64,000 nt of DNA from an uncultured bacterium (GCA_964441235.1 CAYTUQ010000002.1:1705-65704); one strand, 5' to 3'; positions 54,644 to 64,000 are shown, counted from the first letter of the stretch. Notes: generated by a model from the letters alone, not told the origin. Program-made: numbers and translations.

Positions 54644-55465
54644 ATGTGGTACGAATCACTAAAATTTGAGAATCCGAAAACCGTAGAAGAAGCATTAAAC
54701 TGTCTGGAAACTGATGGTGCAGAAATCATTGCCGGGGGTACGGATGAACTCATTCAGATAAGAGAAAAGAAAAAATGTATAAAAAAATTAGTCAATATTG
54801 GAGATATAAAATCTCTTAAAAAGATAAAGAAAAAAGATAATACTCTAATTATTGGAGCATGTGTAACATATTCGGAGTTTCTTGAACTTGCTTCTGAAAA
54901 TTTGCCTCCATTGACAGATGCCGTAAAGCAAATTGCATCTCCCTCGATAAGAAATATTGCTACTTTTGGAGGAAATATTGTGAACGCTTCCCCTGCAGGT
55001 GATACTTTACCTGTTTTGTATGCTTTTAATGCGGAATTGGTTCTGGAGTCTTTGCAGGGCAAGAGAGTTGTAAAGATAAGCGATTTTATTGTCGGCCCAG
55101 GCAAAACAATACTGAATAATATAGAACTTCTAACCGAAATTCGGGTAAATATTCCATCCTTCACTTGTTACTATCGAAAATTCGGTCCACGTAAAGCATT
55201 AGCACTTTCGAAGGTTTCTTTTTGCGGAGTTCACCTGACTGATTACGATGAAATCCGATTGGCGTACGGCTCGGTGGGGCCTACTGTCATAAGGGCTTAT
55301 GAAGCAGAGGAATTATATAAAAAAGGTCAAAAAGACAAAATCCCAAAGTTAATAAATAAATTAGTTCAGCCAATAAATGACCAGCGCTCTACTGCGGAAT
55401 ATCGGAGATATCTGTGCGTGGAAATGACGAGGGAGTTTTTAAAAAAGTGTGAAAATTTGTCTTAA
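54644..55465 (+). CDS. FAD-binding (medium) subunit of XDH-family enzyme
   Basis: IIAGGTDELIQI and ATFGGNIVNASPAGD are typical of FAD_binding_5 / CO-dehydrogenase flavoprotein subunits. Confidence 0.85.
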   Translation: MWYESLKFENPKTVEEALNCLETDGAEIIAGGTDELIQIREKKKCIKKLVNIGDIKSLKKIKKKDNTLIIGACVTYSEFLELASENLPPLTDAVKQIASPSIRNIATFGGNIVNASPAGDTLPVLYAFNAELVLESLQGKRVVKISDFIVGPGKTILNNIELLTEIRVNIPSFTCYYRKFGPRKALALSKVSFCGVHLTDYDEIRLAYGSVGPTVIRAYEAEELYKKGQKDKIPKLINKLVQPINDQRSTAEYRRYLCVEMTREFLKKCENLS

Positions 55466-55716
55466 ATTTTCTATTGATTGTTTCATTTTATTTGGTTACA
55501 CTAACTAATAGTATAAGTGATAAAGAGGAGAAATGAGATTTTATTACTTTAAATTTATAAATCAGAAAGATTTTGTAGATTATCCTAAATTTTCTTCAAT
55601 AATATCTAAATATGTCGAATATAGTAGAAGTCTGTATTAGGTATATGTTGTATTTATAATTTTTCAGGATTCTTTCGTGAGTAATGTTGGATTTTTAGAA
55701 ATTTATAATCGTTAAT

Positions 55717-56388
55717 ATGGAAAATAAAATGAATTTTGATGATCTTTATTTAAATAGAGTGATTTTGGAATTTAGATATGATGGAGGATTTCTATATTGG
55801 GACAAATGTGGAGAAACAATTTTAGATATTCAGAGTAATTTTCCTGAGTGGAATTGGGAAGGAATTTCAACTGAATTAGCAAGGTTGAAAAACCATACAA
55901 GAAATATGGAACTTGTGTTTAATTATAAAAATATACGCTTCATTCAAAATGAAGTCGAGAATCTGAACCAGTTCAAAGAAGCAGCAAGTAAGATTACACC
56001 AATAATTGTCAAAAGCCTTGAGATAAACAAATTCAAGCGAATAGGTAACAGATATCAGTATGTTTTTCCTCTGGAGAATCCTGAGCAGGGCAAGAAAATC
56101 ATAAGAGAGAGTTCCTTGATTAAAATACCTGAGGGAAAACTGGCCTTGTTTGGAGAGAATTCCATTAAAACTAATTTTATTGTCCACATTGAAAACGAAA
56201 ATTATCGTTACAGGATTGAACTTGTAGGCATCGAGCGAGTTGAGGTGCCAAAGAATATTAAGATTGATGAGCGGTTTAACCCCAAATATGGACTGCGTGT
56301 TGATGTAGATATTGCTACTATTAATAAAGTTAATGCTTTAGATTTTGATTGCAGTAGCTTTATTCAATCAAGCAAGAAGTTCCTGTAA
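55717..56388 (+). CDS. TIGR04255-like family protein
   Basis: LNRVILEFRYDGG near the N-terminus and FKRIGNRYQYVF parallel the ...VIEAVFEIRF... and ...NRTGLRYINHI... motifs of the clearer family member at 58883. Confidence 0.5.
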   Translation: MENKMNFDDLYLNRVILEFRYDGGFLYWDKCGETILDIQSNFPEWNWEGISTELARLKNHTRNMELVFNYKNIRFIQNEVENLNQFKEAASKITPIIVKSLEINKFKRIGNRYQYVFPLENPEQGKKIIRESSLIKIPEGKLALFGENSIKTNFIVHIENENYRYRIELVGIERVEVPKNIKIDERFNPKYGLRVDVDIATINKVNALDFDCSSFIQSSKKFL

Positions 56389-56439
56389 AATAATTTAATT
56401 AAATTTATCTAAGAATCAGTGATAAAGGAGGTAGTTCTT

Positions 56440-57087
56440 GTGAATAACACAACCACTGAGACAAGAATTGATGAGAGAGGTGAAGGAATCGCCAAATATG
56501 TTCTCTCAAGAGGAATGACTCAGGTTGAAACTGTAGGCACGTTCCCAAAAGAGCAATTTGCACCGTTCTATTTGCCAACAGAGGAAGAAGAAACTCATAA
56601 GGAATTAGAAGAAACAGATATGACTTTATCAACATCTCCTACAGGTGAAATTGAAAGAGAAATTATACCCACTATAAAAAGGCTAGTTGAAATCATTGAA
56701 TCTGCAATTAGTTTGCTTGATGAGGTATTGGAAGTTTATGATGATGAGATTGAAAGGATAAACACGTTTTCACTCTTTGAAGAAGAAATTAAATCTCTGT
56801 GGGAGTTACGGGAAGAGGCAAACAAGAACTTTGTAGATGTTCTCGTTCTTTTAGAAGTAGCAGCTAAAAATTCACATTATAAAAATTATCAGAAACATCA
56901 GTACCAATCTATAAAAATGGTTTTAGAAAAAATTAAGAGTATCTATATCACACCCCAGAACGCAAGAGAATGTAGAAGATTATTAATGGACAATGGGATT
57001 GACCTTTTTGCTCCTATCAGAAACTGGGAGAATTATACAGTTGAAATAAAGAAAAATAGTATCCTCTCAATAAAGCATGGTAAATAA
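56440..57087 (+). CDS. Hypothetical acidic coiled-coil protein
   Basis: GTG at 56440 lies 9 nt after AAGGAGG (56424-56430). No recognisable motif. Immediately downstream of the TIGR04255-like gene. Confidence 0.5.
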   Translation: MNNTTTETRIDERGEGIAKYVLSRGMTQVETVGTFPKEQFAPFYLPTEEEETHKELEETDMTLSTSPTGEIEREIIPTIKRLVEIIESAISLLDEVLEVYDDEIERINTFSLFEEEIKSLWELREEANKNFVDVLVLLEVAAKNSHYKNYQKHQYQSIKMVLEKIKSIYITPQNARECRRLLMDNGIDLFAPIRNWENYTVEIKKNSILSIKHGK

Positions 57088-57326
57088 ATTCTAAATTCTA
57101 ATATCTAAACTCTAAACAATTTTAAAATTCAAATGTTCAAATGCTCAAAATTCGGCAGATGCTGGACCGATGATTAAATGGATTCCCGTCGATACTTTTG
57201 GTCATTTTGATTTTGGGTTTTTAATTTGTTTAGTATTTCGGATTTCGTACTTCGGATTTTACCTTGTTGGAAATTTACTAATATCAAAGAAACTTACCAT
57301 AAGATATTGAGCGGATACGAAAAATA

Positions 57327-58019
57327 TTGAAACAAAATAGAAAGTTATTTTTAGAAACCACTATCCAGATAGATCGGTTCTCTGCTGACCTAGATAAAAA
57401 GGAAAGAATAGATAAGATAATTTCCCAGTTTAGCCAGATTCTAAGTTCTACTTACGTGAAGATGGAATTCAGAAGAAGGTTTATCCAGGATTTAGTTTAC
57501 CTTTACAATGAAGCCATTTGGGGTGCTGAAACTTTTGCCGATGTCTATGCTAGAATTGACAAACTACATTCTGATTTCCATAAAAGGAAAATTAAAGGGA
57601 TAGTTGCCAGTTTTTACAGATTTTTTTCAGATACCAAAGATGAAGAAATTTCAGGAACATTAGGTAAGATAATTTTAGAAAAAGTAAGACCGTATTTTAA
57701 ACAAATTATATTAGCTGCCTGGGAAAGTTTTGATTTTGGGATCAATACAATACTAAATGAGATTAATTGCTATCATGGATTGAGAGGTCCAGTTCAAAAA
57801 GGCGGGAAGTTTGATAATAGGATGAGCAAGTGTAAAAAAGCAGATATAAGATGTAAGATTCAGGAATTCTTCAATAGAAATATGGAAACTTTCAGAAAAA
57901 TATATGACAAATTTTCTCAAATGGACTGTTTGGATAGTGAACAACAAAAGATGAAGAAATTCTTGAAAAATATAATTCGCTTGAAGGGCTTGCAAATCAG
58001 CCACTTGAAAATTTATTGA
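57327..58019 (+). CDS. Hypothetical protein (weak PIN-like N-terminal pattern)
   Basis: 230-aa ORF, TTG start. LFLETTIQIDRF...LSSTYVKMEF is loosely like the first two acidic positions of PIN domains. Not convincing on its own. Confidence 0.4.
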   Translation: MKQNRKLFLETTIQIDRFSADLDKKERIDKIISQFSQILSSTYVKMEFRRRFIQDLVYLYNEAIWGAETFADVYARIDKLHSDFHKRKIKGIVASFYRFFSDTKDEEISGTLGKIILEKVRPYFKQIILAAWESFDFGINTILNEINCYHGLRGPVQKGGKFDNRMSKCKKADIRCKIQEFFNRNMETFRKIYDKFSQMDCLDSEQQKMKKFLKNIIRLKGLQISHLKIY

Positions 58020-58108
58020 AAATTAAAGGCATATCCGACGTGAAGATAATACGAATAGCTGCAGCTTTTGAAATAGCACTGAGACTGATAGAAAGAAAGA
58101 AGAAATAA
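57971..58108 (+). pseudogene. RadC N-terminal (HhH) fragment
   Basis: In a frame different from ORF 57327-58019: YNSLEGLANQPLENLLKIKGISDVKIIRIAAAFEIALRLIERKKK*. This parallels IEDLLTIKGLGIAKIAQLKATLELAERYL of the intact RadC at 33491. No JAB domain follows. Confidence 0.6.
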
Positions 58109-58158
58109 TTTGTCTAATAAGAAAACCAGGCTAACTGAAAGAGCAACAAGTTATTTTA

Positions 58159-58536
58159 AAAGGGATTATTACTGAGAGTGGAACATATTATTATGAAACA
58201 AATAATATAAATGAGGCATTATATTTACTATCTGTTCTAAATTCGGTAATAGTAGATAAACTTGTCAAACCACTTCAAGTGCGTGGGCTATGGGGATCCC
58301 GTCATTTTCATAAAAAAGTTCTCAAGCTGCCCATTCCGCAATTTGGTGTAAATAATACGCATCATCATAGACTAGCAGAAATTGGTAAAGAATGTAGTAA
58401 AAAAGTAGAAAAATGGTTAAAATGTGGTGGAGTGGGAAAGATTAGAAGTATTGGGAAGTTGCGGAGTATGGTGAGGGAAATGTTGAGGGGAGAGTTGGGG
58501 GAGATTGATGGGGTGGTGGAAGGGATTCTTAGATAA
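58159..58536 (+). pseudogene. C-terminal fragment of a TRD-like / DNA-methyltransferase-associated protein family (AT-rich copy)
   Basis: Frame is open from 58159 without a start. GTYYYETNNINEALYLLSVLNSVIVDKLVKPLQVRGLWGSRHFHKKVLKLPIPQFGVNNTHHHRLAEIGKECSKKVEKWLKCGGVGKIRSIG is a paralogue of 60309-60740. Confidence 0.55.
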
Positions 58537-58882
58537 AAAAAAGCACAAAGGATAAAACAGAAGTTATTTGCGAAATATTATAACTCGTTTCATAATGAAT
58601 TATCAAATTGATTTTTTAATAAAGATTTAGACGAGGGAGTTTTTAAATGACTTATGCAAAATTTCTTGTTGATTTATTTATTTCATTTACTTAAAATAAT
58701 TATAGGAAAGATGTACAAGAGAAGAAATATTGCCTTATCATTTAAATCTGTTGTATTATTGGGTATTAATTTTACGATTTTTGATTACTTTTTGAACAAT
58801 TGAGTGAGGAAAGTAGTCAAGAGATTGGGAATAGAATATTAAACTTTTAATCAGAATTGGTTAAAGTAAATCTGAGGACAAA

Positions 58883-59581
58883 ATGAATACTAAATATATT
58901 GATCCTCCTGTTATAGAGGCTGTTTTCGAAATTAGATTTCCTGCAGAATTATCTATAGAATCTCAAAGAGATAAGTACTATGAAAAGATTAGAGAATATT
59001 TCCCCGATATTTCCGTTCCTAAGGTTGAAAGTCCAGAGCCTTATCCTCTAAAACCTTATCGGTTTGAAACTTCTGATAAATTAAAGATGATCCAATTTTC
59101 AATCAATAGATTTTCTTTTCATACTAAGAAGTATAATACATTTAATGAATTCAATACGGAAGTGATTAATTATATTGAATCTTTTTGCGAGCTGTATAGA
59201 ATATCAAAACTCAATAGAACAGGATTAAGATATATCAATCACATTCCTATAGAACGAGAAAATGGAGTTTTGCAAATATCTAAATATTTGAAATTTGGAT
59301 ATATTTTACCTGATATTATTCCAAGCAACTTAGAACTGTTTCAAACGGTCTTATTGTCACGAATTGAAGAGGGGAAATTAAGGATATTAATTGCTTCTCA
59401 AAATGCAATAGGTACCGGGGATGGAGAGATTATGGTGCTTGACTTTGATTTCTTTTTTGAGGGTGATCTTTCTGTAGATTTGTTAAAGAATTATTTACAA
59501 AATTCTCATATACATACTAAGAAAGTTTTTGAAAGTTTGATTAGTAAAGAATACAGAAGTATTCCAGAGAAAGGGGATTAA
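58883..59581 (+). CDS. TIGR04255-family protein
   Basis: N-terminal YIDPPVIEAVFEIRFPAEL and internal LNRTGLRYINHIP match my recollection of the TIGR04255 signature (PPL.EVV.ElrF...R.GLRYiN). Confidence 0.65.
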   Translation: MNTKYIDPPVIEAVFEIRFPAELSIESQRDKYYEKIREYFPDISVPKVESPEPYPLKPYRFETSDKLKMIQFSINRFSFHTKKYNTFNEFNTEVINYIESFCELYRISKLNRTGLRYINHIPIERENGVLQISKYLKFGYILPDIIPSNLELFQTVLLSRIEEGKLRILIASQNAIGTGDGEIMVLDFDFFFEGDLSVDLLKNYLQNSHIHTKKVFESLISKEYRSIPEKGD

Positions 59582-60061
59582 ATGGATGTTTCTGGTGAAA
59601 CAGTTGAAAAGTTAACTTATCACAATATGTATGATTATCCGGGTGGACAGATTGAGACTTACAAGGGATGGACAGGACCCGGCAAATTTATTGCTCAGGG
59701 AGGTTCCTATGTACCTTTAGCCTATGTTCCGATAAGGCGTGAAGTTCTAACTATGCTTTTATCAGTTGATTCCCAGGTACAAGGCATTATTGAAAAAATA
59801 AATGGCTTGGAAAATAGAGTTTCTACGTTGGAAAAAGGAATTTCATCGGTAGGGATGATTGAGATTTCTGAATCAAATCCAATTGAAGGTAATATTAGGA
59901 TAACAAAAACGGAGGCGAGGAAAAAGATATTAAAACACTTTCAGCTAAGAGGTGAGTTAGATTACTTTGACATAGTAGAAGATCTTGGTCTAGACTTGAA
60001 ATTTGTTGTTGAAATTTGTGAAGAACTAGAAAATGAGAAAGAAATAAAAGCAGTAAAATAA
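59582..60061 (+). CDS. Hypothetical protein with C-terminal wHTH-like region
   Basis: ATG follows the upstream stop directly (TAAATG). Central coiled coil. The C-terminus KKILKHFQLRGELDYFDIVEDLGLDLKFVVEICEELENEKEI looks like a winged helix. Confidence 0.5.
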   Translation: MDVSGETVEKLTYHNMYDYPGGQIETYKGWTGPGKFIAQGGSYVPLAYVPIRREVLTMLLSVDSQVQGIIEKINGLENRVSTLEKGISSVGMIEISESNPIEGNIRITKTEARKKILKHFQLRGELDYFDIVEDLGLDLKFVVEICEELENEKEIKAVK

Positions 60062-60308
60062 TGCCAATATATTTCAAAGAGGGGGATGCAATTCAGGGTG
60101 AAAAATTAGTTTTCACTTGTAGGAAATTTAGTATCTCTAAGAAACCTGTAAAACGAACATCAGCTCATAGAGCACAGAGTGGGAAATTAGATAACGCATA
60201 TTGTGTAATAAATAAGCGTTTTAGGCACATACCAGAGAAATGAAGGTAAAAAAGTATCAATTATATGCTATTTTAAAATAAAATCATCATGTAATTTACA
60301 AATATCGA

Positions 60309-60740
60309 GTGATTTGTAATACTTCGGGGACATTTCTTACTGCTGCAACTGTTGAAAATGAACCTATAGCATTTGAGATTAACGGTCAGAAAATTATATC
60401 AAATGGATTCGTAGCTGATTATGTAACTTACTATTTCGAAACATCAAATTTTAAAGAAGCATACTATCTTAGTTCAATTCTGAACTCTCCTATCCTGAAC
60501 ATTCTGATCAAGCCTATGCAAGCACGGGGCTTATGGGGTCCTCGGGATATTCATAAAAAAGTTCTCGAGTTGCCCATTCCGCAGTTTGATGCGGAAAACT
60601 CCCAACATCGGCAATTGACTGAATTGGGCCAAGCCTGCTCTGCCAAAGTCAGGCAGTGGGTCAACAGCGGCGGTCTCGGCAATATTCGCAGCATCGGTAC
60701 GCTGCTCACACGATGGAAACGTTATACGAAACCGGTATAA
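60309..60740 (+). pseudogene. C-terminal fragment of the same TRD-like family (GC-rich copy)
   Basis: VTYYFETSNFKEAYYLSSILNSPILNILIKPMQARGLWGPRDIHKKVLELPIPQFDAENSQHRQLTELGQACSAKVRQWVNSGGLGNIRSIG. The 3' half is visibly much more GC-rich than its surroundings. No N-terminal catalytic part. Confidence 0.55.
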
Positions 60741-60778: not shown

Positions 60779-60967
60779 ATGGTTGAACAATTAAGTAAGG
60801 AAATTCTTGCTTTTGAAAGTGATCATATATGGGTACATGAGAATTTTGATGATTTGCTTAAAGATTATCAAGACCGGTGGATTGACAAATTTCAAGTTTC
60901 AATCATAGCCTCAGCCTTTGTAGTCAATGGGACAGGCAAGTTTCAAGTATCACGTTTTACGTATTAA
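60779..60967 (+). pseudogene. Possible truncated DUF5678-like small (antitoxin-like) gene
   Basis: ILAFESDHIWVHENFDDLLKDYQDRWI resembles the start of DUF5678-type proteins. The rest is encoded by a CAARTTTCAAGTWTCA duplication and looks non-native. Confidence 0.25.
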
Positions 60968-62281: not shown

Positions 62282-62356
62282 TTGATAATTGGTGAGTGGT
62301 GTTTACTTAAATGTAAAAATTCAGTAAACTACGTCTGACTTAAAAAAAGATTAAAA

Positions 62357-62582
62357 CGCAGAGGCGCAGAGAACGCAGGGAGAAAAAGAAATATTGTAAA
62401 TAGATAAGATGTCGAAAATAGTATCATTAATTAGACGCTAAGGAAAGTTGAAAGATTATGAACATATATTTTAAACAGAGATTGTGAAATGAATAGGAAA
62501 ATTAACATAACTAATCATAAAAATTCTGCGTCTAAAGAATATTATATATCATTTAAATCTCTGCGTTCTCTGCGCCTCTGCG
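62357..62582. repeat. 226-bp element with 24-bp terminal inverted repeats of CGCAGAG modules
   Basis: CGCAGAGGCGCAGAGAACGCAGGG (62357-62380) against CTCTGCGTTCTCTGCGCCTCTGCG (62559-62582): 23/24 complementary. The AT-rich 178-bp core has an extra CTGCG. Ends 56 nt before the BrxC-like start. Confidence 0.85.
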
Positions 62583-62638
62583 TTTATAAATTTGGTTCTT
62601 TTTTTGTTCTGGTTTGTCCAAGTTAGGTGCACAACACT

Positions 62639-64000
62639 ATGAATAAACATGACCTAAAAATAGCTGATCTCATCACCGTTCCACCAGTGGAGACGGTAAT
62701 TCAACTTGAAACGGCGGACAGCAGAGATTTAGATCTCAGCCGGGGACTCCTCACCTCATTCGTACTCACTGATGAAATCGAAAATGCCCTTGCTCAACTT
62801 TTTACGCACATTCTGGAAAAGAAGGGTGCAGGGGCATTCCTGAAAGGGAATTACGGCTCCGGTAAATCTCATTTTCTGGCTGTCGTCTCATTGTTGTTGG
62901 AATCAAACCAGTGCTGGCAGTTTATCACTCACCCTCTACTCAAACAGTTTTCTGACATTCAGAAGCAACAGACTTTAATCGTAAAAATTGCTCTACATAA
63001 CTATTCAGCCGGAGAACCTCTGGAAGCTATTATTCTGGAAGAAACAGAAAAGGCGCTTCAAGACCGAACTGGTAAACCCATACTTCTCCGCAGTAAGGCT
63101 TTGCTGATTGAGCATTTCAACCGATATATCCTTCCACAGCATTCAGAATTCTTAAAATCCGCTGACCACTCCAGAGAGAGTTGGAAACGTTTTTGTAAAA
63201 CTGATCTGTCCCAAGCAGTGAAAAAGGTCACTGCCTTCATCCAATCCCATGGTATTCCTCTAAAAGCGCAATTCGATCGCCGTCAATCCCTTAGAACACT
63301 CCTATCATTTTTGAAGAACGAGCAATTTGCGGGGATATTCTTCGCCGTAGATGAACTATCGGAATTCCTGAAATCCAAAAGCAATTCATCCCTCCTCTCT
63401 GAAGACCTTCGCTTTTTACAGTTTCTTGGGGAAGCATGCAAACAGAACCCTTTCTATCTGGTAGCTACCCTCCAAGAAAATATTGAACAAACGGGGTATG
63501 TGGAAGATGACCTGGTATACCGGATCAAGGACCGTTTCCCCTTAAGATTTAGCCTGTCTGCACACCACGTCAACCAGTTGATTTCCAAACGTCTTGTACA
63601 AAAGAAAGCAGGTTCGGATAAACCCATCCAGGTTGTGTACGACCGTTTCCGGTCATCTTTTCCAAAACTTGAAGTGGGACCAAAGACATTTACCGAAATA
63701 TATCCGGTTCATCCGGATACGGTTACTATGCTGGAAGGTCTGACACCTATCTTCTCCCAACACCGAGGAGTGGTGGACTTCATCTATCACCAGTTGACAG
63801 GTGATGAAAACAGGCAATGGGATGGAATGCTTTCACTTGGTGCCGATTGCCTGATGACTCCCGACACCATCTTTGACCATTTCCGCGAGCGAATCAAAGA
63901 GCACCCGGATTTAGAAGCCTATTCGGAAGTTGTATTCAAAACTATAGAGCGTGAAATCCCTGCTTTGTTTGAATCAGAGAAGGATCAACATATTGCCCTT
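62639..64000 (+). CDS. Large P-loop ATPase, BrxC/PglY-like (DUF499/DUF6079-type), 5' part only (runs off window)
   Basis: Open frame from ATG 62639 to the window end (454 codons; absent from the ORF track because it has no stop). IADLITVPPVETVIQLETAD...FVLTDEIENAL...LKGNYGSGKSHFLAVVSLLLE (Walker A), FFAVDELSEFL (Walker B), IYPVHPDT, FSQHRGVVDF. This pattern matches the N-terminal thirds of BREX-type ATPases. Confidence 0.55.
   Translation, partial: MNKHDLKIADLITVPPVETVIQLETADSRDLDLSRGLLTSFVLTDEIENALAQLFTHILEKKGAGAFLKGNYGSGKSHFLAVVSLLLESNQCWQFITHPLLKQFSDIQKQQTLIVKIALHNYSAGEPLEAIILEETEKALQDRTGKPILLRSKALLIEHFNRYILPQHSEFLKSADHSRESWKRFCKTDLSQAVKKVTAFIQSHGIPLKAQFDRRQSLRTLLSFLKNEQFAGIFFAVDELSEFLKSKSNSSLLSEDLRFLQFLGEACKQNPFYLVATLQENIEQTGYVEDDLVYRIKDRFPLRFSLSAHHVNQLISKRLVQKKAGSDKPIQVVYDRFRSSFPKLEVGPKTFTEIYPVHPDTVTMLEGLTPIFSQHRGVVDFIYHQLTGDENRQWDGMLSLGADCLMTPDTIFDHFRERIKEHPDLEAYSEVVFKTIEREIPALFESEKDQHIAL

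What the first reader, a model, noticed from the sequence alone, without database searches (positions are those of the whole stretch)
55717..60061. Two TIGR04255-like genes, each followed by a small unrelated partner, in a decayed accessory region
Seen:
- 55717-56388 and 58883-59581 share family-type motifs (..V[IL]E..F..R[FY].. near the N-terminus, and R-[IT]-G-[NL]-R-Y in the middle).
- Each is followed closely by a gene of 160-215 aa. The first (56440, strong AAGGAGG) is acidic coiled-coil. The second (59582, TAAATG junction) is coiled-coil plus a wHTH.
- The modules are surrounded by RadC and TRD-like fragments and a possible PIN-like ORF.

Established: TIGR04255 is a sporadically distributed family with no assigned function.

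Inference: these are two-gene cassettes of the TA or abortive-infection type. The duplicated architecture in a defence-type neighbourhood hints at a conflict-system role.
Basis: partly seen in the sequence, partly recalled or inferred. Interest (0 to 1): 0.5.

Follow-up and report, generated by a model that had tools for sequence, protein, structure and literature searches.

The report
Two three-gene toxin-antitoxin-like cassettes
The two "TIGR04255-like" genes each head a conserved three-gene operon (one intact, one broken) that resembles a toxin-antitoxin pair plus an uncharacterised third protein, which gives the first testable idea of what this widespread family does.

Summary
The ORFs and motifs are real. 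Only 58883-59581 (B1) is a TIGR04255 member (109.6 bits, cut-off 30). 55717-56388 (A1) scores 15.2 bits and is a distant relative: hhalign 82%, E 1e-5 over the full length, with the same TBP/AdoMetDC-like predicted fold.

Both cassettes have three genes, not two.
- **Module B** is B1, B2 (59582-60061, coiled coil plus wHTH) and a missed 60-aa gene B3 (60061-60243). All three recur in the closest relatives.
In related loci 38/40 keep A2 and 35/35 keep A3.

In sister clades the same first gene sits upstream of HicB-like/HicA-like pairs or coiled-coil/PIN pairs. My best reading is a tripartite TA-like module. The TIGR04255-type protein would be an accessory controller of an interchangeable antitoxin/toxin pair, analogous to SecB in TAC systems but unrelated in fold.

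Module A in this window is decayed: a nonsense codon in A1, a 260-nt MITE between A2 and A3, and A3 missing about 50 C-terminal residues. Module B looks intact.

Apart from this locus, which lies next to a BREX-like gene and methylase fragments, neighbours are mostly housekeeping genes. I found no defence-island enrichment. Toxicity is untested. No paper in the searched library mentions TIGR04255.

The parts
55717..56388 (+). A1: distant TIGR04255-like protein and first gene of module A. It is 223 aa from this ATG; homologues suggest the real start is 55729. It ends at a premature TAA (56386-56388).
   Evidence: - NCBIfam TIGR04255: 15.2 bits against a cut-off of 30.
- The family has 47 clusters of about 229 aa.
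- hhalign against the B1 family: 81.7%, E 1.1e-5, 185 collinear columns.
56389..56412 (+). Residual in-frame tail of A1 (NNLIKFI*) lying after the nonsense codon.
   Evidence: Homologues end in ...KKFLENNLIKFI. tblastn with the L046 A1 protein aligns through the stop codon to 56409.
56440..57087 (+). A2: second gene of module A, with a variable acidic N-terminal half and a conserved helical C-terminal half. The last 9 codons and the stop are supplied by the inserted MITE.
   Evidence: - An A2 homologue follows A1 in 38 of 40 related loci.
- Alignment A8 shows the domain layout.
- There is no Pfam or PDB family.
- AAGGAGG lies 8 nt upstream.
- In L045, A2 is fused in frame to A1.
57059..57318 (.). 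260-nt MITE-like insertion that splits the A2/A3 junction. It is flanked by the 8-bp target duplication GAAAAATA (57051-57058 and 57319-57326) and has terminal inverted repeats GTATCC[T/G]CTCAATA.
   Evidence: One search shows the repeats. Removing the element restores an A2 stop that overlaps the A3 start, as in homologue L046.
57327..58019 (+). A3: third gene of module A, here truncated. It is 230 aa against 267-290 aa in homologues, and it lacks the conserved C-terminal CxxC...GDAII...TTN.KHF block.
   Evidence: - tblastn finds a homologue directly after A2 in 35 of 35 loci with enough sequence.
- Alignment A6 shows the missing block.
- Similarity ends at 57980, and the missing C-terminus is nowhere else in the window.
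- PIN membership is inconclusive.
58135..58536 (+). Fragment 1 of the C-terminus of a type IIG / N-6 DNA methylase (PglX-like) gene. No N-terminal part is present.
   Evidence: It is 55% identical over 106 aa to fragment 2. It matches the 3' parts of plasmid genes annotated 'N-6 DNA methylase', E down to 2e-21.
58883..59581 (+). B1: genuine TIGR04255 family protein and first gene of module B (232 aa, full length).
   Evidence: - TIGR04255: 109.6 bits against a cut-off of 30, covering profile positions 2-248 of 252.
- 118 homologous clusters.
- AF2 pLDDT is 90.
- The fold is TBP/AdoMetDC-like and two-lobed.
59582..60061 (+). B2: second gene of module B, with a variable N-terminus, a coiled coil and a C-terminal winged helix-turn-helix.
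   Evidence: - Homologues of 51, 39 and 33% identity sit directly after the three closest B1 relatives (L109, L112, L113; alignment A5).
- The middle region gives coiled-coil hits.
- Homologues give weak HTH_24 / HTH_47 hits.
60061..60243 (+). It is a 60-aa basic protein with invariant C20, H36 and C48, and its ATG overlaps the B2 stop (TAATG).
   Evidence: - Homologues of 73, 53 and 52% identity occupy the same position, with the same stop/start overlap.
- Substitutions against L109 fall 12/9/32 by codon position, with 24 synonymous and 16 non-synonymous codon changes.
- No Pfam, NCBIfam or PDB match.
60309..60740 (+). Fragment 2 of the C-terminus of a type IIG restriction-methylase (PglX-like) gene.
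   Evidence: It matches PADLOC REase_MTase_IIG models, E 4e-7, at profile positions 977-1052 of 1100. It is paralogous to fragment 1.
62639..64000 (+). Start of a large BrxC/PglY-type (BREX-like) ATPase gene that runs off the end of the window. It is context, not part of the cassettes.
   Evidence: The sister contig L001 calls a 1748-aa product here with PF19557 BrxC-PglY_N and a faint PglZ hit.

Best explanation
Each module is a tripartite toxin-antitoxin-like operon.
- **Gene 3** (B3; A3) is the growth-inhibiting effector.
- **Gene 2** (B2 with a wHTH; A2) is its neutralising partner, and in B2 probably also the autoregulator.
- **Gene 1** is the TIGR04255-type protein. It would be an accessory controller, acting as a chaperone or sensor on gene 2, probably through gene 2's variable N-terminal extension. 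This would make neutralisation conditional, as SecB does in toxin-antitoxin-chaperone (TAC) systems.

The conserved E/R, R-x-G-x-R and D-x-D residues sit at i/i+2 positions on three strands of a TBP-like sheet. This points to a ligand- or partner-binding face.

Shown here:
- the three-gene architecture and its conservation;
- translational coupling between the genes;
- swapping of the gene 2/3 pair under a conserved gene 1;
- PIN (firm) and HicA-like (weak) identity of gene 3 in sister clades;
- the fold class of gene 1.

Inferred only: which protein is toxic, that gene 1 acts on gene 2, and any link to phage.

In this window module B is intact. Module A is a decaying copy.
For: **Architecture**
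- Module A family: 38 of 40 loci keep A2 and 35 of 35 keep A3. The genes abut or overlap.
- Module B subclade: B2 and B3 are conserved in all 3 independent relatives, with conserved stop/start overlaps. B3 is under purifying selection.

**Swapped pairs under the same first gene**
- 33 genome loci carry a 130-170-aa partner in one BLAST cluster. It gives weak PHD_like / HicB-type hits.
- In 27 of those loci a tightly coupled 93-109-aa third gene follows. It hits HicA_toxin in 6 of 26, best E 1.9e-4.
- L004 and L105-L108 carry a coiled-coil partner plus PIN: PF01850 at 31.9 and 42.6 bits (cut-off 23.6) in L105 and L108, and E 3.3e-7 in L004.
- L070 combines an A-type core (263 bits on the A1 HMM) with a HicB-like/HicA-like pair.

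**Physical link**
- A1 and A2 are fused in frame in L045.

**A1 and B1 are one superfamily**
- hhalign E 1.1e-5.
- Cross-HMM hits.
- Both have high-confidence models with the same structural neighbours.

**Precedent**
- SecB-like chaperones attach to the HigBA, MqsRA and HicAB families through non-conserved antitoxin extensions (PMC5105189).

**Distribution**
- The cassettes sit sporadically among housekeeping genes, as mobile TA cassettes do.
Against: - No toxicity or neutralisation data exist.
- B3 and A3 match no toxin family. A3's PIN-like motif order is not statistically supported.
- The HicB-like and HicA-like assignments in the sister clade rest on sub-threshold hits.
- TIGR04255 shows no similarity to SecB or to any chaperone.
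- Its strictly conserved Arg/Asp/Glu residues look more like an enzyme or ligand site than a passive chaperone surface.
- Gene 1 comes first in the operon, whereas SecB comes last in TAC.
Confidence: 0.5

Rival explanations
1. Three-component abortive-infection or defence system. The TIGR04255-type protein senses a phage cue (protein, nucleic acid or nucleotide) on its TBP-like sheet. Gene 2 is an adaptor or inhibitor, and gene 3 is the effector released on infection.
For: - In the window the modules lie next to a BREX-like BrxC/PglY gene and methylase fragments.
- The Thermus plasmid copy lies next to VapC/CopG, a DNA methylase and Cas6.
- L111 lies next to an SNF2/SWIM/methyltransferase cluster.
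- Conserved charged residues on gene 1 suggest ligand binding.
- TA modules, including hicAB, are increasingly linked to phage defence (PMC10865869).
Against: - PADLOC finds nothing for any of the six proteins.
- In 51 related loci the nearest neighbours are mainly housekeeping. Among families seen in two or more proteins, only SNF2 (3), ResIII (2), integrase (2) and DUF433 (2) are conflict- or mobile-element-type, plus a single BrxL hit.
- This reading differs from the best explanation mainly in the trigger, so the two are hard to separate by sequence alone.
Confidence: 0.2
2. One reading: a two-gene TA in which the TIGR04255-type protein is the toxin or effector and the next gene is its antitoxin. 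The third gene would be incidental.
For: - Gene 1 and gene 2 are tightly coupled and always adjacent.
- Gene 1 carries invariant Arg/Asp residues compatible with catalysis.
- A1 and A2 are fused in L045.
Against: - The third gene is as conserved as the second: 35 of 35 in the A family, 3 of 3 in the window's B subclade, and 27 of 33 plus PIN variants in the distant B clade.
- In sister clades that third gene is a recognised toxin domain, PIN or HicA-like, so a second toxin is not needed.
- Gene 1 stays constant while genes 2 and 3 swap together. This is the behaviour of an accessory part, not of the toxin of a cognate pair.
Confidence: 0.12
3. Type VII-like variant. The TIGR04255-type protein is an enzyme using ATP or another nucleotide on its antiparallel sheet. 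It would covalently modify the toxin or antitoxin to switch the system.
For: - The motifs E-x-R, R-x-G-x-R-Y and D-x-D lie on strands.
Against: - Non-enzymes such as TBP and Med20 score equally well.
- No nucleotide-binding motif was identified, and there is no sequence match to any solved enzyme.
Confidence: 0.1
4. Not a conflict system: a small regulatory or housekeeping operon of unknown physiology that happens to be patchily distributed.
For: Neighbours are mostly housekeeping genes. None of the window's six proteins has a functional annotation.
Against: - Distribution is sporadic across many phyla, and the locus differs in every genome.
- Partner pairs are swapped, and PIN or HicA-like proteins occur in the same slot.
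- One copy here is decaying through a MITE insertion, a nonsense codon and a deletion.
Confidence: 0.08

Closest known systems
NCBIfam TIGR04255 ('sporadically distributed' family of unknown function)
   Same: B1 is a full-length member (109.6 bits). A1 shares the motif order, length, predicted fold and operon position.
   Different: A1 falls below the curated cut-off (15.2 bits against 30). It belongs to a separate, unannotated sister family: 47 close clusters, and 977 representative proteins reached by its profile.
TAC: tripartite toxin-antitoxin-chaperone modules with a SecB-like chaperone (PMC5105189)
   Same: One conserved accessory gene is attached to several unrelated TA pairs, including HicAB. 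The antitoxin-side partner carries a poorly conserved extension.
   Different: The accessory protein has a TBP/AdoMetDC-like fold, not SecB. It is the first gene, not the last. The variable extension of gene 2 is N-terminal. It also carries invariant Arg/Asp/Glu residues that suggest more than chaperoning. Function is untested.
hicBA 'Class 8' of Gerdes 2024 (PMC10865869): HicA of about 95 aa with two extra C-terminal helices, plus a 342-356-aa HicB made of an unknown N-terminal domain, a LysRS-like middle domain and a HicB fold
   Same: The distant B1 clade has a 93-109-aa HicA-like gene 3 with a C-terminal extension. Its gene 1 (about 235 aa) plus the HicB-like end of gene 2 would add up to such a long 'HicB'.
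   Different: This is only a lead, because the Class 8 sequences could not be fetched and compared. The window's own modules carry B2/B3 and A2/A3, not HicB/HicA.
VapBC-type PIN toxin-antitoxin modules
   Same: Some B1 relatives end in a true PIN protein (L004, L105-L108). A3 homologues show PIN-like motif order: FL[ED]T, S.Y..ME, GDAII, TTN.KHF.
   Different: A3 has a four-Cys insertion and fails the Pfam PIN cut-off and profile comparison. The window's A3 has also lost the C-terminal motifs. An extra first gene is present.

Membership tests
TIGR04255 (NCBIfam) | Whole-protein score at or above the curated cut-off of 30 bits | tested here: met
   B1 (58883-59581) scores 109.6 bits, E 2.1e-31, covering profile positions 2-248 of 252.
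TIGR04255 (NCBIfam) | The same cut-off applied to A1 (55717-56388) | tested here: not met
   A1 scores 15.2 bits, E 0.014, with a partial match. Only 3 of 26 close A1 relatives touch the model, best E 0.005. Of 62 wider relatives, 7 hit it, best E 5e-6.
TIGR04255 superfamily (wider sense) | Collinear full-length profile-profile similarity and the same fold | tested here: met
   - hhalign: 81.7%, E 1.1e-5, positions 11-218 against 12-209.
- The B1-family HMM gives A1 24 bits and the bridging L070 core 36 bits.
Type II toxin-antitoxin module | Small adjacent, translationally coupled genes that are patchily distributed | tested here: met
   Junctions are TAAATG and TAATG, or ATGA overlaps, in relatives. 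The host loci are unrelated to one another.
Type II toxin-antitoxin module | One product belongs to a recognised toxin family | tested here: not met
   In the window, B3, A3, A2 and B2 have no toxin family hit. The feature is met only in sister clades, with PIN above cut-off and HicA_toxin at weak level.
Type II toxin-antitoxin module | Toxicity of one product and neutralisation by its partner | not testable with these tools
   This requires expression experiments.
TAC (toxin-antitoxin-chaperone) | The third component is a SecB-like chaperone | tested here: not met
PIN domain (for A3) | Pfam PIN-clan score above the gathering cut-off, or significant profile similarity to PIN proteins | tested here: inconclusive
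   - PIN and PIN_12 hit only at E 0.03-0.19 in 2 of 25 members each.
- hhalign against true PINs gives probabilities of 0.3% and 2%, although the N-terminal FLET/FLDT segment aligns.
- The PDB profile search finds nothing.
- The motif order is PIN-like by eye.
Known anti-phage defence systems (PADLOC-DB 2.0) | A match to any defence-system protein model | tested here: not met
   A1, A2, A3, B1 and B2 have no significant hit at E up to 1; A2's only match, PDC-M09A, has E 0.065. Only the methylase fragment 60309-60740 matches a model significantly. B3 was not scanned against PADLOC.
Defence-island resident | Enrichment of defence genes among the neighbours of family members | tested here: inconclusive
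   I scanned the two nearest ORFs on each side in 32 B-type and 19 A-type loci. They are mostly housekeeping, with few SNF2, ResIII, integrase or BrxL hits. There was no background set, and only the 25 commonest families were visible, so this is not a formal score.

The most novel reading that the evidence does not exclude
TIGR04255-type proteins, including the unannotated A1 sister family, are a widespread and previously unrecognised class of third component. They plug into interchangeable toxin-antitoxin pairs. They act as a ligand-binding sensor or enzyme on a TBP-like sheet, not as a SecB-type chaperone. B3 (60-70 aa, Cys/His-bearing) and A3 (a Cys4-containing PIN-like protein) would be two new toxin families.
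Probability: 0.3. Interest if true: 0.75.

Novelty: new variant of a known kind. Interest (0 to 1): 0.55.

Why it matters
TIGR04255 is a broadly scattered family with no assigned function. I found no paper mentioning it in the 8-million-paper library. The results here give it a concrete, testable role:
- it always heads three-gene operons;
- the two downstream genes swap as a pair;
- in some lineages those two genes are PIN- or HicA-type TA pairs.

If confirmed, this would add a second, structurally unrelated example of "accessory-protein addiction" of TA systems alongside SecB-TAC. It would also provide two candidate new toxin families, and it might explain the oversized "Class 8 HicB" proteins. 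For genome annotation, about 1,000 representative clusters of A1-like proteins currently carry no family label.

Tried and rejected
- **Direct BLASTP of A1 against B1 and of A2 against B2:** nothing significant.
- **Word-indexed homologue search for B2:** it found only B2 itself. Homologues were recovered instead by reading the loci of B1 relatives.
- **PADLOC on the ORFs of the region (B3 not included):** no system found.
- **Profile searches of B1, the A1 superfamily, A2, B2, B3, A3, the HicB-like partner and the HicA-like gene against PDB sequences:** no significant hit.
- **hhalign of A2 against B2 and of A3 against PIN proteins:** not significant.
- **NCBIfam on B3, A3 and other partners:** nothing.
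- **AFDB Foldseek library:** unavailable.
- **Promoter and terminator scan:** no more sites than in shuffled sequence.
- **RadC fragment:** not confirmed by tblastn against plasmids.
- **"Duplicated architecture":** rejected, because the modules are only distantly related and their partners are unrelated.
- **"B3 is a HicA remnant":** rejected, because I saw no resemblance on comparing the sequences by eye and no HicA hit.
- **"Defence-island enrichment":** not supported by the limited neighbour survey.

Full report

Both ORFs exist at 55717-56388 (A1, 223 aa) and 58883-59581 (B1, 232 aa). Each is followed closely by a second ORF.
- A2 is 56440-57087. It has a GTG start, with AAGGAGG 8 nt upstream.
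- B2 is 59582-60061, joined to B1 by a TAAATG junction (sequence).

NCBIfam gives B1 109.6 bits on TIGR04255 (cut-off 30) across almost the whole profile. A1 gets only 15.2 bits (E 0.014), a partial match. BLASTP between A1 and B1 finds only the RIGNRY/RTGLRY patch. A2 and B2 are unrelated.

**2. Is A1 related to TIGR04255 at all?**

A1 has 47 close homologue clusters, all unnamed and without a Pfam domain. The evidence for a distant relationship is as follows.
- A profile of this family aligns with a profile of B1 relatives over 185 collinear columns (11-218 against 12-209). hhalign gives 81.7% probability and E 1.1e-5. The alignment matches V-ILE-R-Y to VFEIRF, R-x-G-x-R-Y to R-x-G-x-R-Y, and D-x-D to D-x-D.
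- The A1 profile reaches 977 representative proteins in a 1.84-billion-protein library. Seven of 62 sampled members touch TIGR04255, best E 5e-6.
- A local HMM of the B1 family gives A1 24 bits. It gives 36 bits to a bridging protein, L070, which scores 263 bits on the A1 HMM.
- The AlphaFold models are confident (pLDDT 91 and 90).
- Foldseek, run on the B1 model, likewise ranks AdoMetDC and TBP first, with TM 0.26-0.44.

I conclude that A1 is a divergent sister family of TIGR04255 with a two-lobed TBP-like fold. It is not a member by the model's cut-off.

**3. The cassettes have three genes.**

*Module B.* The three closest B1 relatives with enough sequence (L109, L112, L113; 56-65% identity) each carry two further genes.
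- A B2 homologue (51, 39 and 33% identity) starts at the B1 stop.
- A 64-70-aa gene follows, homologous to the window ORF 60061-60243 (73, 53 and 52% identity). Its ATG overlaps the B2 stop.
- Substitutions in this gene, which I call B3, fall 12/9/32 by codon position against L109, so it is a real coding gene.
- B2 has a variable N-terminus, a coiled coil and a C-terminal wHTH.
- B3 is basic, has invariant C20, H36 and C48, and matches no family.

A2 itself is present in 38 of 40. The two exceptions are informative.
- In L045, A1 and A2 are fused in frame.
- In L070, an A-type first gene is followed by the partner pair typical of the distant B clade.

Independent gene callers also report the 229/199-209/270-272-aa trio in public genomes and metagenomes.

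**4. What sister clades show.**

More distant B1 relatives in 33 genome loci are followed, usually with an ATGA overlap, by a 130-170-aa protein. These proteins form one BLAST cluster. They carry a C-terminal FFAENE..L...G.G.T..EA motif and give weak hits to PHD_like antitoxins (E 0.003) and to PDB 3k6q (E 0.02).

In 27 of these loci a tightly coupled 93-109-aa third gene follows. It hits Pfam HicA_toxin in 6 of 26 cases, best E 1.9e-4.

Other relatives (L004, L105-L108) carry a coiled-coil second gene and a true PIN third gene. PF01850 scores 31.9 and 42.6 bits against a cut-off of 23.6, and E 3.3e-7 in L004.

An Acinetobacter contig has a 260/181/270-aa trio. A Thermus plasmid copy lies beside VapC/CopG, a methylase and Cas6.

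So the first gene stays constant while genes 2 and 3 change together. Where they can be named, they look like antitoxin/toxin pairs.

**5. Mechanism.**

The best-supported reading is a tripartite TA-like module.
- Gene 3 is the effector.
- Gene 2 is its neutraliser. B2's wHTH suggests that it also autoregulates the operon.
- The TIGR04255-type protein is an accessory controller.

The closest precedent is TAC. There, SecB-like chaperones serve the HigBA, MqsRA and HicAB pairs through non-conserved antitoxin extensions (PMC5105189). Here the gene-2 proteins have poorly conserved N-terminal regions, which could play that role. This is inference.

There are clear differences from TAC.
- The fold is TBP/AdoMetDC-like, not SecB.
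- The gene comes first in the operon.
- Invariant E/R, R-x-G-x-R and D-x-D residues sit at i/i+2 positions on strands. This suggests a ligand-binding or catalytic face.

For these reasons a sensor variant or an enzymatic (type VII-like) variant remains open. The longest structural alignments are to guanidino kinases, including the protein-arginine kinase McsB, but only at fold-class level.

A3 homologues show a PIN-like motif order with four conserved Cys. Pfam, PDB and hhalign tests are not significant.

**6. State of the copies in this window.**

Module B has full-length genes and intact junctions. Module A is decaying.
- A1 ends at a TAA where homologues have Glu. The old tail NNLIKFI* is still readable in frame. 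This allele occurs on 12 contigs.
- A 260-nt MITE-like element (57059-57318) separates A2 from A3. It has the 8-bp target duplication GAAAAATA and terminal inverted repeats.
- Removing the element restores the overlapping stop/start seen in homologues.
- A3 loses similarity at 57980. It lacks the C-terminal 50 or so residues (CxxC, GDAII, TTN.KHF), which are nowhere else in the window.
- A sister assembly carries a further deletion of about 35 nt inside A2.

**7. Context.**

Module B is flanked by two 55%-identical C-terminal fragments of type IIG / N-6 methylase genes. A BrxC/PglY-type gene starts at 62639. This particular locus therefore does look like an accessory, defence-type region.

Elsewhere the picture is different. 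The two nearest ORFs on each side in 32 B-type and 19 A-type loci are mainly housekeeping: sugar transferases, tRNA synthetases, gyrase, aconitase and the like. Only a few are SNF2, ResIII, integrase or BrxL. PADLOC recognises none of the six proteins. I therefore see no evidence of defence-island enrichment, though the test was informal.

**8. Novelty.**

No paper in the searchable library contains TIGR04255 or its InterPro names. Gerdes' survey of HicA contexts describes a "Class 8" (PMC10865869).
- Its HicA is about 95 aa, with two extra C-terminal helices.
- Its HicB is 342-356 aa: an unknown N-terminal domain, a LysRS-like middle domain and a HicB fold.

This could be a fused form of the distant B clade. 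I could not fetch those sequences to test it.

Overall this is a new variant of a known kind: a tripartite TA with a new accessory family. In this window there is one intact and one degraded example.

Noticed in passing
window 57051-57326: A 260-nt MITE-like element with the 8-bp target-site duplication GAAAAATA and imperfect terminal inverted repeats (GTATCC[T/G]CTCAATA...). No other copy occurs in the window.
   Followed up: partly
window 55426-55540 and 58630-58740: An exact 18-nt direct repeat (GACGAGGGAGTTTTTAAA) lies within about 110 nt of roughly 70% similarity. The first copy is the 3' end of the FAD-binding dehydrogenase subunit gene (54644-55465). The repeats bracket module A, the supposed RadC piece and methylase fragment 1. 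This looks like an att-type duplication left by a 3.2-kb insertion, but no integrase is present.
   Followed up: partly
window 58135-58536 and 60309-60740: Two direct-orientation, 55%-identical C-terminal fragments of a type IIG / PglX-like methylase flank module B. No intact N-terminal part is present. A 21-nt repeat (58792-58812 and 60783-60803, 90% identical) follows each fragment. Their origin is unexplained; possibilities are a tandem duplication around the cassette or silent specificity cassettes for the nearby BREX-like system.
   Followed up: partly
window 62639-64000 (continues in L001 12050-15840): A BrxC/PglY-type P-loop ATPase gene whose 1748-aa product also has a faint PglZ hit, which would be an unusual fusion if real. 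A 28-nt inverted repeat, 96% complementary, lies just upstream at 62354-62381 and 62558-62585.
   Followed up: no
L001 about 6381 (window 56930-56965): The sister metagenome assembly is otherwise identical but lacks about 35 nt inside A2, which truncates A2 to 171 aa. This is either a population polymorphism or an assembly error.
   Followed up: partly
L045 147-1484; L025 6696-7418: There are in-frame fusions between neighbouring cassette genes. A1 and A2 form one 445-aa ORF in L045. The HicB-like and HicA-like genes form one 240-aa ORF in L025. These could be real fusions or sequencing errors.
   Followed up: no
L070 370-1928: A hybrid cassette: an A-type first gene (263 bits on the A1 HMM, 36 bits on the B1 HMM) followed by the HicB-like/HicA-like pair typical of the distant B clade.
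   Followed up: partly
Its identity is unverified.
   Followed up: partly
window 60779-60967: A 62-aa ORF (MVEQLSKEILAFESDHIWVHENFDDLLKDYQDRWI...) with no family hit. A DUF5678 gene occupies a similar position downstream of the cassette in L109, so this may be a remnant of such a gene.
   Followed up: no
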